From the IMG/VR virus record IMGVR_UViG_2778261688_000008, positions 1 through 6,945 of that record: DNA of 6,945 bases. One strand, written 5' to 3'. This DNA comes from a virus (lineage: Duplodnaviria > Heunggongvirae > Uroviricota > Caudoviricetes). Below are positions 765 through 4,135 of this stretch, piece after piece; within the stretch, counting starts at the first letter, position 1, and each line of letters begins with the position of its first letter. The notes under the pieces were generated by a model. The model was not told where the DNA came from. It saw nothing but the letters and a program-made list of their open reading frames with translations, and ran no database searches. The position numbers were made by a program, and so were the translations under genes.

Positions 765-1001
765 ATGGCTATCACATCATTTGCAGCAACTGACGTTACA
801 TATGCTGATGGGCAGAAGAACAAAGAACCAATTCCTGATGAAATTCTTGCAAGCGGCTTCGTTCCACCTGTACGCATGCCAGACGGCTCTATCTCAGCGG
901 GGAGCAAACTTGCTGCTAATCATCTCAATACCCTACTTAACGATTTATACACGCAAATATATGACCTTAAGGCTCGCGTGACTGAACTTGAGGGGGCGTA
1001 A
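765..1001 (+). CDS. Small phage protein (78 aa), function unknown, with C-terminal predicted amphipathic/coiled-coil helix
   Basis: ATG at 765 lies 9 nt after the upstream stop, with a weak GTGAGA Shine-Dalgarno-like element at 753-758. Its TAA stop overlaps the next gene's ATG (TAATG, 999-1003). The ORF exactly fills the gap between two structural genes. The C-terminal segment NHLNTLLNDLYTQIYDLKARVTELEG has heptad-like hydrophobic spacing. Confidence 0.5.
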   Translation: MAITSFAATDVTYADGQKNKEPIPDEILASGFVPPVRMPDGSISAGSKLAANHLNTLLNDLYTQIYDLKARVTELEGA

Positions 1002-1657
1002 TGGCTGACATCCTTCTCAAATATCTGACTGATTTACCCTCTGCCGCTGACGCCGAGCCCTCAGACCTGATGCATATCAACCAGGCCGGAAATGACCGCT
1101 CAATAACATTAGAGGTGCTTGCATCCGCAATTTTCAACATCAGATATCCGGTAGGAAAAGTTGAATGGTTCGCTAACGATACTAACCCAAACGCAATTTG
1201 GTCTGGTTCTACGTGGGCCAGAATACCGGGAATGGGAAAAACTATACGCCTTGCAAATAGCACTGGAACTGATGTTTTACAACAGGGCGGTTCAGATACT
1301 GTCGAAATTACATCTTCAAATCTGCCACCACACAAACATCCAATAAATGTAAAAACAGAATCGTTTGATTATGGCTCAAAGTCGACAAGTAGCACAGGGT
1401 CGCATGTCCATGCGTTTGCATACCGAAGAAATGGCAATTCTTCTGATTCTGACCCTGGAGGGGATGTCATGAAGTCTGGTTCCGGCACAAAAAACGAAAG
1501 CAGAAATACTGAGTCGGCAGGAAATCACCAGCACAGTGTAAGCATCGGAGCTCACGAGCATGATATCAAAGGAGACACCGACAGCGTTGGTGGTGGCACT
1601 CCGTTGAGCTTAACTAATGCCTACGTAAAATTAGCGGCTTGGTACAGGACAGCATAA
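1001..1657 (+). CDS. Short tail fibre protein with lambda Stf-like / phage tail-collar-type C-terminal domain carrying His-x-His motifs
   Basis: Strong GAGGGGG Shine-Dalgarno upstream of ATG 1001; an in-frame TGA at 989-991 fixes the start. Motifs LPPHKHP, SFDYGSKSTSSTGSHVHAF and GNHQHSVSIGAHEHD closely resemble, from memory, the SFDYGTKST..GAHAH / GSHSH / GAHQH repeats near the C-terminus of lambda side tail fibre Stf and related fibre tips. The segment YPVGKVEWFANDTNPNAIWSGSTWARIPG resembles the tail-collar domain core. At 218 aa it lacks the long shaft of Stf. Confidence 0.75.
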   Translation: MADILLKYLTDLPSAADAEPSDLMHINQAGNDRSITLEVLASAIFNIRYPVGKVEWFANDTNPNAIWSGSTWARIPGMGKTIRLANSTGTDVLQQGGSDTVEITSSNLPPHKHPINVKTESFDYGSKSTSSTGSHVHAFAYRRNGNSSDSDPGGDVMKSGSGTKNESRNTESAGNHQHSVSIGAHEHDIKGDTDSVGGGTPLSLTNAYVKLAAWYRTA

Positions 1658-4135
1658 ATGGCAGAACAAAAAGTAAAGTTAACTGAACTCCCGGCAGCTA
1701 CAGATACAATCGACACAGCACAACTTCTGGTGAATCAAAACAGTACAGACCAGAAAATTCAAGTAACACACTTCCTACGATCTAAAAATAACCTTTCAGA
1801 CCTTGTAGATTCAGATCAGGCCAGAGCAAATCTTAATGTTCCATCAGTAGATGAAGTAAACGACAAGTTATCTGGATATATAAACGGCTCACTTTCTTTT
1901 AGTGCGGGTGGGTCTTTAGCTTCTCGCACTGACTTTATCTGGGATGAGGAGAGCAAAGCATGGTACTACTGGAGCGGAACACTTCCAAAGGATGTGCCAG
2001 CAGCATCCACACCGGATTCTACTGGCGGGATTGGTGCTGGTAAATGGGTGCAAGTTGGAGATTTAATCTTAACGGAAAAGATTGACCGCGCTTTATTCAA
2101 TAATTTTATTTATAACTTTGGTGGCATTCCAGACTACACTGGCGCACCACTATATGATGGAAATGATGCATCAAGAATTACAGCCACAGACAATACACCA
2201 ATGCTGCTGAATGCATTGACAAACGGCATTATTAAAAATAATGTTTTGCGAATCCATATCCCTGCCGGCCACTACGGATTCAGTGGTGACAAAATCATTC
2301 TTGACCCAACAACGCTACCTTACAAGAAAATCATCATTTCTGGTGAGGGTGAAGGCGTTACGATCCTTGACTATATTAAAGAGGACAACACCGGGACCGG
2401 TAACACTGAACAGGGTGATAACGCAAAAGAACTTCTGCGTTTTGAAGTTGGTTTTGACCACGTAGAGTTTCAGAACATAACGCTGAAATGTACAACTAAA
2501 ACAGGCTTTGTTAACGGCACTCCATCCAGTGACCCAAGTAACTGGGCGATTTACAACGGCACGATTTGGTTTGCTCACATCAAGCAGGCAAAAAAAGTTG
2601 TGTTGCGTTCAGTAACCACTGAACACGGTAACTATCGCTGCCTTAGCATCGATGGTATATCTGAGACTTCACCAGGCGTTACGGAACTTGAAATGCATGA
2701 CTGCACTGGGCGTTACAATACTGGTAGTGGTTTCTGGCTACGTGGGATTAAAAAATCCAGAATTTTTAACTGCTATGGCTACCGTAATGGCAATAAGGGC
2801 GTAACCGCAACAGGTTATGGCATTACTTTTAGCCAGTATTGTTCTGATATTATTATTCAGGGCGGTGCATACTACGAGAACTACAGGAAAGGAGTTGATA
2901 AACATGGTGGCATTGGCAACATCACCATGAAAGACGTGCTGATTGCAGACAACATCATGTTTCAGACATCGTTTGACCATCAGTATCTTGGTCTTTACCC
3001 TGGTGATGTCATGACTGATATGCAACTTTCAAACGTTGATATTGAGTTTGGAAGAAATCCTGATTTCTGCAACGAAGCATTGAGCGCAATAGATCTAACT
3101 TTCAGAAATCACATATCAATTGTCCTGAATGATAAGCTAATCAACGGGTCAACTGCTGGACGCCTGCGCCAGGTTCGCGCGAAAGACTGTAGTATAAAAT
3201 ACTTACAAGGTGTTACGGTACCATTTAACACGTATGTATGTATTTCAGAAATGGCGCAAGAAGCACTGCTAGATAACGTCAGCGTTGACGTCAGAGCGCT
3301 TCAACTTGACAGAACTGGAAATAAAGACGTTTACACGCTAACCACAATTGGTATTGGTGCAGATAATGCAACCTTAAACATCCACGGTGGCCAGTATCTT
3401 ACTGCTGATGGACTGGTGAGGGATCTTAACGGCAATAACAGCAACAGTCTGTTTATTGGCGCAAAAGCAAACTCTAAAATCATTATTGGTGGCAGCGCAG
3501 AATTTGACCTGGTCAACCATGTTCTGCTTGGTTCAACTGGCTCGGGACGAGCGTTTGAATATACTGGACAGCGAAAAATCGACGACTGCTCGTTCAAAGT
3601 AAGAAACTTACAGAACGTGACTCACCAGTTTAGCACCGGCGCAGGACTTGCCTGGTTAGAAAATGGTTTCTTCTTTGGAAACGCCGCCAATCAGATAAAC
3701 TATGGAGGTGCAGTGGCGCTTGGGTTTGGAGACTGTCACAACATGACACAACACAAATTTGGTGTTCATGATCGTGGAGTAACGTTCAAAATAGACAACT
3801 CAAAATTGCAAGCAGGCACACCTTGCAATATTTTAACTGCAAACCTGTATGGTAATATGAATTTACGGCTAGAAGGACGCTGCGCAAGATCTCCTGATAT
3901 ATATGAAGCTCGATGGCTAGGAAGTGCCAACACGTTTCAAGTTGTTGTTGGAAGTGATAGAATATCTAGCGGAATCACAACCGATCAAGCAATCCAATGG
4001 AATGGCAATAATACAAATCTAATAGCTAAGAAGATAACCCTCAACACAACAACCTCTCTTAGCGCCACGGAATATTACGTGGCAGAGATAAGTGCCAACA
4101 ACAACTTTACAGTAAAGTATCTTGGCACACTGTAG
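1658..4135 (+). CDS. Tailspike / receptor-binding protein with predicted right-handed parallel beta-helix (putative polysaccharide depolymerase)
   Basis: 825-aa ORF whose ATG at 1658 directly abuts the upstream TAA (1655-1657); stop TAG at 4133-4135. The central region is rich in Asn/Gly/Thr/Ile with recurring short beta-strand-like segments (e.g. GNYRCLSIDGISETSPGVTELEMHDCTGRYNTGSGFWLRGIKKSRIFNCYGYRNGNKGVTATGYGITFSQYCSDIIIQGGAYY), typical of pectate-lyase-fold tailspikes. The N-terminal ~40 aa share a motif with the preceding fibre gene. The sequence is not P22 gp9-like by recollection. Confidence 0.75.
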   Translation: MAEQKVKLTELPAATDTIDTAQLLVNQNSTDQKIQVTHFLRSKNNLSDLVDSDQARANLNVPSVDEVNDKLSGYINGSLSFSAGGSLASRTDFIWDEESKAWYYWSGTLPKDVPAASTPDSTGGIGAGKWVQVGDLILTEKIDRALFNNFIYNFGGIPDYTGAPLYDGNDASRITATDNTPMLLNALTNGIIKNNVLRIHIPAGHYGFSGDKIILDPTTLPYKKIIISGEGEGVTILDYIKEDNTGTGNTEQGDNAKELLRFEVGFDHVEFQNITLKCTTKTGFVNGTPSSDPSNWAIYNGTIWFAHIKQAKKVVLRSVTTEHGNYRCLSIDGISETSPGVTELEMHDCTGRYNTGSGFWLRGIKKSRIFNCYGYRNGNKGVTATGYGITFSQYCSDIIIQGGAYYENYRKGVDKHGGIGNITMKDVLIADNIMFQTSFDHQYLGLYPGDVMTDMQLSNVDIEFGRNPDFCNEALSAIDLTFRNHISIVLNDKLINGSTAGRLRQVRAKDCSIKYLQGVTVPFNTYVCISEMAQEALLDNVSVDVRALQLDRTGNKDVYTLTTIGIGADNATLNIHGGQYLTADGLVRDLNGNNSNSLFIGAKANSKIIIGGSAEFDLVNHVLLGSTGSGRAFEYTGQRKIDDCSFKVRNLQNVTHQFSTGAGLAWLENGFFFGNAANQINYGGAVALGFGDCHNMTQHKFGVHDRGVTFKIDNSKLQAGTPCNILTANLYGNMNLRLEGRCARSPDIYEARWLGSANTFQVVVGSDRISSGITTDQAIQWNGNNTNLIAKKITLNTTTSLSATEYYVAEISANNNFTVKYLGTL

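What the first reader, a model, noticed from the sequence alone, without database searches (positions are those of the whole stretch)
1001..1792. Two consecutive receptor-binding proteins share a conserved N-terminal motif (possible common virion anchor / dual-RBP arrangement)
The first ~40 residues of the 218-aa fibre (MADILLKYLTDLPSAADAEPSDLMHINQAGNDRSITLEVL) and of the 825-aa tailspike (MAEQKVKLTELPAATDTIDTAQLLVNQNSTDQKIQVTHFL) align with one gap, giving a shared pattern L-T-[DE]-L-P-[SA]-A-x-D ... [IV]-N-Q ... D-x-x-I. Downstream the two proteins are unrelated (HxH fibre tip versus beta-helix). This fits a modular design in which different receptor-binding modules use one attachment domain, so the virion may carry two receptor-binding proteins or the module may be a recombination hot spot.
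Basis: seen in the sequence. Interest (0 to 1): 0.55.

Follow-up and report, generated by a model that had tools for sequence, protein, structure and literature searches.

The report
Shared baseplate anchor on two phage fibres
Two neighbouring receptor-binding genes of an E. coli prophage, a short fibre and a tailspike, begin with the same ~40-residue domain, which most likely plugs both onto the tail baseplate as already seen in Felix-O1-like phages, so the finding is correct but ordinary.

Summary
The 218-aa HxH fibre (1001-1657) and the 825-aa tailspike (1658-4135) share a homologous N-terminal ~40-residue motif. BLASTP gives 13/37 identities. Profiles of the two N-termini, built from about 50 related loci, align with 93% probability (E 2.5e-7).

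The window is the tail end of a phiEt88-like temperate myovirus prophage. The gene order is wedge 2, wedge 1 (1-756), a 78-aa protein (765-1001), fibre, tailspike, then convergent gtrCBA. All 48 related loci that were fetched keep this trio. The tailspike's first ~140 residues are conserved and the rest is swapped completely.

Felixounaviruses have a collinear module. Cryo-EM of Bas63 shows both of its fibres attached through a structurally conserved N-terminal baseplate-binding domain. One fibre sits on wedge 2 and the other on a small platform trimer. The motif here aligns with those N-termini, including the EDRK[C/M]T stretch noted in Sf14.

The best reading is therefore a shared baseplate-binding domain that lets one virion carry six fibres and six tailspikes. 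The exact docking sites are inferred, not shown. The motif is widespread, has no Pfam family, and is tandemly repeated in some fibres. It is a new member of a known kind, of modest interest.

The parts
1..756 (+). Peripheral baseplate wedge protein (wedge 1 type, 251 aa)
   Evidence: Matches phrog_6277 at 2.7e-91 and the baseplate families phrog_1160 and phrog_4056. The Bas63-type wedge 1 protein of phage RPN213 hits the same phrog_6277 at 4e-11. BLASTP to that protein gives E 0.004. PDB chains named 'Wedge 1 protein' and phi92 gp146 match weakly. In full prophages it follows a 472-aa wedge protein and a sheath initiator.
765..1001 (+). 78-aa protein with a C-terminal predicted helix; candidate fibre platform or adaptor
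   Evidence: Matches phrog_24124 at 4.8e-50, a family of unknown function. It is present directly upstream of the fibre gene in nearly all related loci. It sits in the same position as Bas63 gp25 'LTF platform' (PDB 9ndy_S). Profile-profile comparison with that family gives only 37.5% probability and E 3.5e-4, aligned from N-terminus to N-terminus. Its stop codon overlaps the fibre start (TAATG).
1001..1120 (+). N-terminal motif of the fibre (residues 1-40): the shared domain
   Evidence: It is the most conserved part of the fibre family: identity is 0.92 for residues 1-10 and 0.70-0.76 for residues 21-40. The AlphaFold2 model shows coil at 1-22, a beta hairpin at 23-28 and 31-36, and a helix at 37-48, with pLDDT 83-88 from residue 21.
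1001..1657 (+). Short tail fibre, 218 aa: shared N-terminal domain, collar, and a short HxH needle tip
   Evidence: Pfam Gp10_C covers residues 44-217 at 36.7 bits, above the cut-off of 27. It resembles the T4 gp37 tip 2xgf. HxH pairs at 111/113, 135/137, 176/178 and 185/187 are invariant in the family. The C-terminal part is 42-44% identical to the tips of Felixounavirus and Lastavirus fibres.
1658..1777 (+). N-terminal motif of the tailspike (residues 1-40): the shared domain
   Evidence: Identity is 0.71-0.77 among 38 distinct spikes. The AlphaFold2 model of this part was of low confidence and is uninformative.
1766..1843 (+). One copy of the common trimeric fibre repeat (…NNLSDL…ARANL…), spike residues 37-62
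   Evidence: A profile of the spike N-terminus matches six copies of this repeat in the short tail fibre gp92 (PDB 9zd7) and one in Mu fibre protein S (5yvq).
1853..2062 (+). Tail_spike_N domain (spike residues 66-135)
   Evidence: Pfam PF18668 at E 3.5e-26. PDB matches include the tailspikes of CBA120 (TSP1, TSP3, TSP4) and Sf11 gp13.
1658..4135 (+). Tailspike, 825 aa: conserved N-terminal module (residues 1-140) plus an exchangeable beta-helix body
   Evidence: None of the other 37 distinct spikes shares the C-terminal body; identity to it is 0.16-0.21. The fibre stop codon abuts the spike ATG.
4139..4173 (.). Perfect 14-bp hairpin between the convergent tailspike and gtrC genes; likely a bidirectional terminator that ends the tail operon
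   Evidence: The RNA fold has a free energy of -30.1 kcal/mol, z -6.4, and no shuffle out of 200 folds as well.

Best explanation
The shared ~40 residues form a small N-terminal domain: an extended segment, a beta hairpin and a short helix. Both trimeric receptor-binding proteins use it to attach to the baseplate wedge of a small contractile tail. The virion would then carry two kinds of appendage, six short HxH-tipped fibres and six O-antigen-type tailspikes, each plugged in through its own copy of the domain.

By analogy with Felixounavirus Bas63, the first-gene product (the short fibre) would dock on the larger wedge protein. The second-gene product (the tailspike) would dock on a trimer of the small 78-aa protein, which sits on the peripheral wedge protein encoded at 1-756.

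Because the anchor is kept and the distal parts are free to change, the distal modules are exchanged by recombination, mainly after spike residue ~140.

Shown here:
- homology of the two N-termini;
- conservation of the gene trio;
- the break in conservation within each gene;
- collinearity with the Bas63 module.

Inferred:
- that the domain contacts the baseplate;
- which site each protein uses;
- that both proteins are in one virion.
For: - The two N-termini are homologous at profile level (93.4%, E 2.5e-7).
- In the prophage the genes run sheath initiator, 472-aa wedge, 251-aa wedge, 78-aa protein, fibre, spike.
- Phage RPN213, a Felixounavirus, runs wedge subunit, 285-aa baseplate protein, 100-aa protein, 388-aa fibre, 812-aa fibre. 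Its 100-aa protein is the Bas63 'LTF platform' of PDB 9ndy.
- The Bas63 paper reports that both fibres bind through a structurally conserved N-terminal baseplate-binding domain. The short fibre binds wedge 2A domain 2 and the long fibre binds the platform trimer on wedge 1 (PMC12609058).
- The joint motif profile aligns to the N-termini of the two RPN213 fibres in register: probability 60% with E 9e-5, and 77% with E 2e-5.
- The fibre's N-D-R-S-I-T (31-36) falls on the E-D-K-R-C-T stretch. This is the stretch the Sf14 paper calls the baseplate-binding region and notes in both fibres (PMC11821841).
- Wedge 1 homology is supported by cross-matching PHROG families (4e-11).
- The N-termini are the best conserved parts of both families, and DNA identity shows two islands at the two gene starts.
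- A megablast match to an Enterobacter phage ends at window position 1095, which is codon 32 of the fibre.
- In a scan of 1.84 billion representative proteins the motif lies at residues 1-5 in most of the 102 hits. It precedes many unrelated distal domains.
- Pam3 shows that one peripheral wedge protein of a minimal baseplate can offer two fibre docking sites (PMC9942802).
Against: - No structure or proteomics exists for this phage group.
- The match to the Bas63-type N-termini is moderate (60-77%).
- The match of the 78-aa protein to the platform family is weak (37.5%), and they share no PHROG family.
- The AlphaFold2 model of the spike N-terminus was of low confidence (mean pLDDT 47), so a common fold was not shown.
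- Foldseek of the fibre model found nothing significant.
- The motif is not always N-terminal. In Klebsiella phage LASTA gp14 it starts at residue 630, and some fibre-like proteins carry 2-6 tandem copies. It is therefore a general small structural unit and not only an anchor.
- In Bas63 itself the fibre-baseplate interfaces are small and poorly resolved.
- The stronger co-variation of the spike N-terminus with the 78-aa and wedge proteins (r 0.9) than of the fibre N-terminus (r 0.6-0.7) is confounded by two deep clades.
Confidence: 0.62

Rival explanations
1. The motif is a generic small trimer-forming 'bead' that starts or extends fibre shafts, with no specific docking role. Contact with the baseplate would be made by other residues or by other proteins.
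For: Several fibre-like proteins carry 2-6 tandem copies of the unit: P0089 has 3, P0095 has 5, P0090 has 6 and P0097 has at least 4. In LASTA gp14 the unit is internal, at residue 630. The AlphaFold2 model shows a self-contained hairpin plus helix.
Against: Most of the 102 representative hits have the motif at the very first residues, often beginning MAD or MAE. In both families here it is the most conserved segment, as expected for a part that meets a conserved partner. The equivalent region in Sf14 and Bas63 is the baseplate-binding region.
Confidence: 0.17
2. The two proteins compete for one and the same docking site because they share one anchor. Virions would then carry mixtures, or either protein alone.
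For: The anchors are homologous. In Pam3 a single fibre species fills different sites, which shows that the anchor-socket relation can be loose. Bas63 long fibres show variable occupancy.
Against: The two N-termini are only ~35% identical, and each has its own family-specific invariant residues. In the collinear Bas63 module the two fibres occupy two distinct sites. The conserved 78-aa gene would have no role. Both genes are kept intact in nearly all loci that are long enough.
Confidence: 0.12
3. Branched arrangement: one protein hangs on the other, as in CBA120 or G7C, where T4 gp10-like domains of one tailspike hold the N-terminus of another. The 218-aa 'Gp10_C' protein would be an adaptor rather than a receptor-binding fibre.
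For: The 218-aa protein matches Pfam Gp10_C and is annotated 'phage baseplate protein'. The spike has the Tail_spike_N domain typical of branched tailspike systems.
Against: The Gp10_C match covers a collar plus an HxH needle, which resembles the receptor-binding tips of T4 gp37 and of both Bas63 fibres. A homologous N-terminus on both partners is not a feature of the branched systems. Variation in the fibre family concentrates in residues 141-170 of the needle/tip part, beyond the collar (identity 0.15-0.22). That is expected for a receptor-contacting part.
Confidence: 0.07
4. Chance or compositional similarity at two translation starts.
For: Comparison of the full-length proteins against shuffles is only borderline, with 60 of 1000 shuffles reaching the score.
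Against: The profile-profile E-value is 2.5e-7. No shuffle out of 5000 reaches the N-terminal score. The same motif recurs in about 100 representative protein clusters. The DNA of the two segments is not notably similar, so the constraint is on the protein.
Confidence: 0.02

Closest known systems
Felixounavirus Bas63 fibre module: wedge 2 gp23, wedge 1 gp24, LTF platform gp25 (PDB 9ndy), short fibre gp26 and long fibre gp27 (PMC12609058)
   Same: The gene order is the same. [quoted passage not shown] Wedge 1 is homologous. The first fibre has a collar plus an HxH needle tip. A small protein sits between wedge 1 and the fibres.
   Different: Here the second appendage is an enzymatic-type tailspike (Tail_spike_N plus beta helix) instead of a long HxH fibre. 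The first fibre is far shorter (218 versus ~390 aa). The small protein is 78 aa with a terminal helix, against 100 aa, and is only weakly similar. The phage is temperate, with a Pam3/E217-type tail. The two N-termini are recognisably similar in sequence, whereas the Bas63 authors saw no apparent sequence conservation.
Shigella phage Sf14 fibres gp52 and gp53 (PMC11821841)
   Same: Two fibres are present on one virion. A shared E-D-R-K-[C/M]-T stretch in the baseplate-binding region aligns with N-D-R-S-I-T in the fibre and T-D-Q-K-I-Q in the spike here.
   Different: There is no cysteine at that position here, so the disulfide link proposed for Sf14 gp52 does not apply. The distal domains differ.
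Cyanophage Pam3 fibre gp24 on wedge protein gp23 (PMC9942802)
   Same: It has a minimal baseplate of the same general type: Pfam Pam3_gp18 and Sheath_initiator are found in the full prophage. Two fibre docking sites per wedge give twelve appendages.
   Different: Pam3 uses one fibre species with an alpha-helical N-terminal domain and disulfide bonds. Here there are two different proteins with a hairpin-helix motif.
Branched tailspike complexes of CBA120 (TSP1-4) and G7C (gp63.1/gp66)
   Same: Several receptor-binding proteins sit on one virion, and the Tail_spike_N domain is present in the spike.
   Different: In those systems attachment is through T4 gp10-like domains of one spike that hold another. 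The partners do not share a homologous N-terminus.
Shigella siphophage Sf11 tailspike gp13 on the distal tail protein gp17 (PDB 9occ, PMC12724387)
   Same: A short N-terminal segment of about 60 residues precedes Tail_spike_N and anchors a tailspike to a tail protein.
   Different: In Sf11 three N-terminal helices bundle with one adaptor helix. There is no sequence match to the motif here, and the tail type differs.
Erwinia phage phiEt88 gp26-gp28, Hafnia phage Meifeng and Enterobacter phage vB_Ecl_MII_001
   Same: They belong to the same phage group and carry the same trio of genes.
   Different: They are only annotated as hypothetical or tail proteins. No structural or functional study was found.

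Membership tests
Ounavirinae-type dual-fibre baseplate module (Bas63 / Sf14) | Gene order wedge 2, wedge 1, small platform protein, fibre 1, fibre 2 | tested here: met
   The full prophage loci and the RPN213 locus have the same order.
Ounavirinae-type dual-fibre baseplate module (Bas63 / Sf14) | [quoted passage not shown] | tested here: met
   Profile-profile comparison of the two N-termini gives 93.4% probability and E 2.5e-7.
Ounavirinae-type dual-fibre baseplate module (Bas63 / Sf14) | That domain is homologous to the Bas63/Sf14 baseplate-binding domains | tested here: inconclusive
   hhalign against single RPN213 sequences gives 60% (E 9e-5) and 77% (E 2e-5), in register from residue 1. 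The HMM search is weak.
Ounavirinae-type dual-fibre baseplate module (Bas63 / Sf14) | Homologous wedge 1 protein | tested here: met
   RPN213 wedge 1 hits phrog_6277 at 4e-11. The window protein hits phrog_4017 at 0.0039.
Ounavirinae-type dual-fibre baseplate module (Bas63 / Sf14) | Platform protein homologous to Bas63 gp25 | tested here: inconclusive
   hhalign of the two family profiles gives 37.5% probability and E 3.5e-4. They share no PHROG family. The gene position is the same.
Ounavirinae-type dual-fibre baseplate module (Bas63 / Sf14) | Both fibres end in a T4 gp37-like HxH tip | tested here: not met
   Only the 218-aa protein has such a tip. The second protein is a beta-helix tailspike.
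Ounavirinae-type dual-fibre baseplate module (Bas63 / Sf14) | Both proteins physically present on the virion at separate sites | not testable with these tools
   This needs proteomics or cryo-EM.
Pfam PF18668 Tail_spike_N | Score above the gathering cut-off | tested here: met
   The score is 91.5 bits against a cut-off of 25, over spike residues 66-135.
Pfam PF21939 Gp10_C | Score above the gathering cut-off | tested here: met
   The score is 36.7 bits against a cut-off of 27, over fibre residues 44-217.
T4 gp10-type branched tailspike adaptor (CBA120 TSP2/TSP4, G7C gp66) | gp10-like docking domains in the N-terminal part of one spike that hold another spike | tested here: not met
   No gp10-like domain is found in the spike. 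The Gp10_C match in the 218-aa protein is the collar and needle of a fibre tip.
Pfam PF19264 DUF5907 repeat | The motif falls within the repeat model | tested here: not met
   DUF5907 matches only the segment that follows the motif in P0097-type proteins (profile positions 43-75). It does not match the window N-termini.

The most novel reading that the evidence does not exclude
The ~40-residue motif would define an uncurated and very widespread 'plug' domain of receptor-binding proteins. It can dock on a baseplate socket or stack on another copy of itself, which would explain the tandem arrays and the internal copy in LASTA gp14. It would then act as a near-universal connector that lets distal modules move between contractile-tailed, short-tailed and temperate phages. 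In this prophage the fibre and the spike would be interchangeable between sockets.
Probability: 0.2. Interest if true: 0.55.

Novelty: new member of a known kind. Interest (0 to 1): 0.3.

Why it matters
The result assigns a likely role to the first 40 residues of two unannotated or mis-annotated prophage proteins; RefSeq calls them 'phage baseplate protein' and 'hypothetical protein'. It links a common group of Enterobacteriaceae prophages (phiEt88-like, carrying gtr serotype-conversion genes) to a baseplate design that has been seen by cryo-EM.

It also gives a sequence signature for a domain that the Bas63 authors could recognise only by structure. The conserved anchor and the sharp break after spike residue ~140 mark practical boundaries for swapping tailspike bodies when engineering host range.

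None of this changes current understanding of how phages attach their fibres.

Tried and rejected
- AlphaFold2 of the spike N-terminus (residues 1-147, 11 sequences) gave mean pLDDT 47, with residues 1-61 below 50, so it says nothing about a common fold.
- Foldseek of the fibre model against the PDB gave no hit below E 0.08. This is expected for a monomer model of an interdigitated trimer.
- Profile searches of both N-termini against PDB sequences found no solved relative of the motif. They found only the downstream fibre repeat.
- Pfam and NCBIfam have no family for the motif, for the 78-aa protein or for the 251-aa protein.
- DUF5907 was considered and rejected.
- The word-index homology search with the spike N-terminus returned only 13 fragments and was of little use.
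- The genome-collection scan returned only 3 loci. The viral collection gave 45.
- P0078 (a eukaryote-like repeat protein) and P0116 in the representative search are false positives.
- Correlating distance matrices to guess which partner each N-terminus binds gave a pattern (spike with the 78-aa and wedge proteins, r about 0.9). Two deep clades dominate it, so I do not rely on it.
- The Bas63 fibre chains themselves are not among the deposited PDB sequences.

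
Full report
**What is in the window.** The plus strand carries four tightly packed genes:
- a 251-aa protein (1-756);
- a 78-aa protein (765-1001);
- a 218-aa protein (1001-1657);
- an 825-aa protein (1658-4135).

The stop codon of the 78-aa gene overlaps the next start (TAATG). The stop of the 218-aa gene abuts the ATG of the 825-aa gene. The minus strand carries gtrA, gtrB and a 496-aa gtrC-like gene.

The 218-aa protein matches Pfam Gp10_C over residues 44-217 and resembles the T4 gp37 fibre tip. 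It has four invariant HxH pairs. The 825-aa protein has Tail_spike_N at residues 66-135 followed by a beta-helix region.

Positions 244-6945 of the window are 100% identical to E. coli strains D9 and D4, where only a remnant survives between two ISEc52 copies. Other assemblies hold the whole prophage. Its tail genes carry Pfam families named after the small contractile tails of E217, Pam3 and phiTE. Described relatives with the same gene set are Erwinia phage phiEt88, Hafnia phage Meifeng and two Enterobacter phages.

**Check of the observation.** The two quoted N-termini are correct.
- BLASTP places its best alignment at residues 1-37 versus 1-36, with 13 of 37 identical, one gap and E 0.007.
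- For the first 45 residues the local score of 49 lies 7.2 standard deviations above shuffles, and none of 5000 shuffles reaches it.
- Against shuffles of the whole proteins the match is only borderline, with 60 of 1000 reaching it.

The pair alone is therefore suggestive, not conclusive. I collected 48 related loci. All of them contain the same trio: a 72-80-aa protein, a 212-220-aa fibre beginning MADIxLKYLT[DE]L, and a spike of 506-1148 aa beginning MAEQKVKLT[DEQ]LP or a diverged form. Profiles of the two N-termini align over columns 1-43 and 1-42 with 93.4% probability and E 2.5e-7.

**Conservation pattern.**
- Among 38 distinct spikes, mean pairwise identity is 0.77 for residues 1-20 and stays at or above 0.5 to residue 140. 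It falls to 0.2 at 141-180 and to about 0.05-0.1 beyond.
- None of the other spikes shares the body of the one in the window.
- In the fibre family the first ten residues are the best conserved (0.92). The least conserved part is residues 141-170, in the needle/tip part beyond the collar.
- DNA identity to related loci is high through the wedge and 78-aa genes and the first ~100 bases of the fibre gene. It then drops, rises again at the spike start, and drops after about 2000-2100.
- A megablast match to Enterobacter phage vB_Ecl_MII_001 ends at position 1095, which is codon 32 of the fibre.

Both genes thus have a conserved proximal part and an exchangeable distal part.

**How widespread the motif is.** A 44-column profile of both N-termini was scored against 1.84 billion representative proteins and gave 102 hits at E up to 0.001.
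- In most hits the motif starts at residues 1-5, commonly as MAD.K[IL]sEL..At.....DlL.v.Q.G..kK.T...L.
- It precedes unrelated distal parts such as Gp10_C tips and pectate-lyase-type beta helices.
- About twenty proteins have two to six tandem copies.
- In Klebsiella phage LASTA gp14 a complete fibre-like module, starting with its own Met-Ala, begins at residue 630 of an 844-aa protein.
- No Pfam or NCBIfam family and no solved structure matches the motif by sequence. DUF5907 covers only a neighbouring segment in one subgroup.
- The AlphaFold2 model of the fibre predicts coil at 1-22, a hairpin at 23-36 and a helix at 37-48, with good confidence from residue 21.

**The informative comparison.** The fibre tip is 42% identical to the tip of the long fibre of Felixounaviruses. 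The fibre region of one of them, Salmonella phage RPN213, reads as follows:
- wedge subunit;
- 285-aa baseplate protein;
- 100-aa protein;
- 388-aa fibre;
- 812-aa fibre.

This is collinear with the prophage. The 100-aa protein is the 'LTF platform protein gp025' of the Bas63 structure 9ndy. [quoted passage not shown] The short fibre sits on domain 2 of wedge 2A. The long fibre sits on the platform trimer, which sits on wedge 1 (PMC12609058).

Both RPN213 fibres start with sequences that resemble the motif. The joint profile aligns to them in register, with 60% probability (E 9e-5) and 77% (E 2e-5). In that alignment the fibre's N-D-R-S-I-T falls on E-D-K-R-C-T. This is the stretch the Sf14 paper places in the 'baseplate-binding region' and finds in both fibres as E-D-R-K-C-T and E-D-R-K-M-T (PMC11821841).

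The 251-aa protein is homologous to Bas63-type wedge 1, through a cross-match to phrog_6277 at 4e-11. The 78-aa protein occupies the platform position but matches the platform family only weakly: 37.5% probability, E 3.5e-4, aligned from N-terminus to N-terminus. In the related minimal myovirus Pam3, the peripheral wedge protein offers two fibre docking sites, giving twelve fibres (PMC9942802).

**Most likely mechanism.** The shared segment is the baseplate-binding domain of both proteins. Each wedge would carry one short HxH fibre and one tailspike, attached through homologous but distinct plugs to two different sockets. By analogy, the fibre would go to the large wedge protein and the spike to a trimer of the 78-aa protein on wedge 1.

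The tailspike probably handles the O-antigen. This fits the gtr O-antigen-modification genes next door, although that link rests on established knowledge of such phages and was not tested here. The short fibre would bind a second, more conserved surface structure.

Homology, gene order and the conservation breaks are shown. Contact with the baseplate, the choice of sockets and co-presence in one virion are inferred. I put 0.62 on the domain being the baseplate anchor of two co-resident appendages, and roughly half of that on the specific socket assignment.

**Rivals.**
- The tandem arrays and the internal copy show that the unit is a free-standing structural bead. A purely structural role cannot be excluded (0.17).
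- Competition for a single site is possible (0.12). It fits poorly with the distinct family-specific residues, the Bas63 precedent and the conserved 78-aa gene.
- A branched arrangement of the CBA120 or G7C type is unlikely (0.07). The Gp10_C match is a fibre tip, not a docking domain, and branched partners do not share N-termini.
- Chance is excluded for practical purposes.

**Novelty and value.** Conserved N-terminal anchors with exchangeable distal modules are textbook for phage receptor-binding proteins. Two fibres sharing a baseplate-binding domain have been described for Bas63 and Sf14. What is added here:
- a further phage group with this design, in which the second appendage is a tailspike;
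- sequence-level evidence for a domain previously recognised by structure;
- the observation that this motif is widespread, has no curated family, and is sometimes repeated in tandem.

I rate it a new member of a known kind, with interest 0.3.

Noticed in passing
window 4180-6945 (minus strand): There is a gtrA (6583-6945), gtrB (5663-6586) and 496-aa gtrC-like (4180-5670) O-antigen glucosylation cluster, convergent with the tailspike gene. The gtrC-like gene has very low GC (0.30-0.36, against 0.45-0.50 elsewhere) and matches no family in Pfam, NCBIfam or PHROGs.
   Followed up: partly
window 4139-4173: A perfect 14-bp hairpin (UGUUGUGCCAGCCU…AGGCUGGCACAACA) lies in the 44-base gap between the convergent tailspike and gtrC genes. 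Its free energy is -30.1 kcal/mol with z -6.4. It is probably a bidirectional terminator. The simple terminator scan missed it.
   Followed up: partly
window 999-1003 and 1655-1660: The three genes are joined start to stop: TAATG overlaps the 78-aa stop and the fibre start, and TAA-ATG lies between fibre and spike. This suggests translational coupling and matched expression.
   Followed up: no
L001 (E. coli D9, NZ_CP010152.1) 18823-27960; also strain D4: In these two dog isolates the prophage is reduced to the truncated wedge gene, the 78-aa gene, the fibre, the spike and gtrCBA. The remnant is flanked by two frameshifted ISEc52 copies and a truncated integrase. The identity to the window starts only at window position 244.
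   Followed up: partly
L004 10658-14200: In one assembly the tailspike gene is interrupted after 42 codons by a DDE transposase insertion. The remaining 644-aa part is called as a separate gene.
   Followed up: no
L002 (Enterobacter phage vB_Ecl_MII_001, PQ039552.1) 13646-13720: The deposited sequence has one A fewer in a homopolymer (caaaag versus caaaaag in the window). This breaks the spike reading frame after four codons, so the N-terminal motif is not annotated. The spike is further split into 456-aa and 239-aa ORFs. These are probably sequencing errors.
   Followed up: partly
L058 (Klebsiella phage LASTA, NC_054965.1) 4114-6648: gp14, annotated 'endoglucanase E1' (844 aa), contains at residue 630 a complete fibre module that starts with Met-Ala and the motif and is 44% identical to the window fibre. 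It is either a gene fusion or two genes read as one.
   Followed up: partly
proteins P0089, P0090, P0092, P0095, P0097: These fibre-like proteins carry 3-6 tandem copies of the ~40-residue motif ahead of Gp10_C or pectate-lyase-type domains. The motif is thus also used as a repeating shaft unit.
   Followed up: partly
window 1766-1843 (spike residues 37-62): Directly after the motif comes one copy of the common fibre repeat …NNLSDL…ARANL…. The same repeat occurs six times in the short tail fibre gp92 of PDB 9zd7 and once in Mu fibre protein S.
   Followed up: partly
L020, RefSeq annotation of L001 20522-20758: RefSeq names the 78-aa protein 'phosphoglycolate phosphatase'. Nothing found here supports that name. 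It looks like an annotation error.
   Followed up: no
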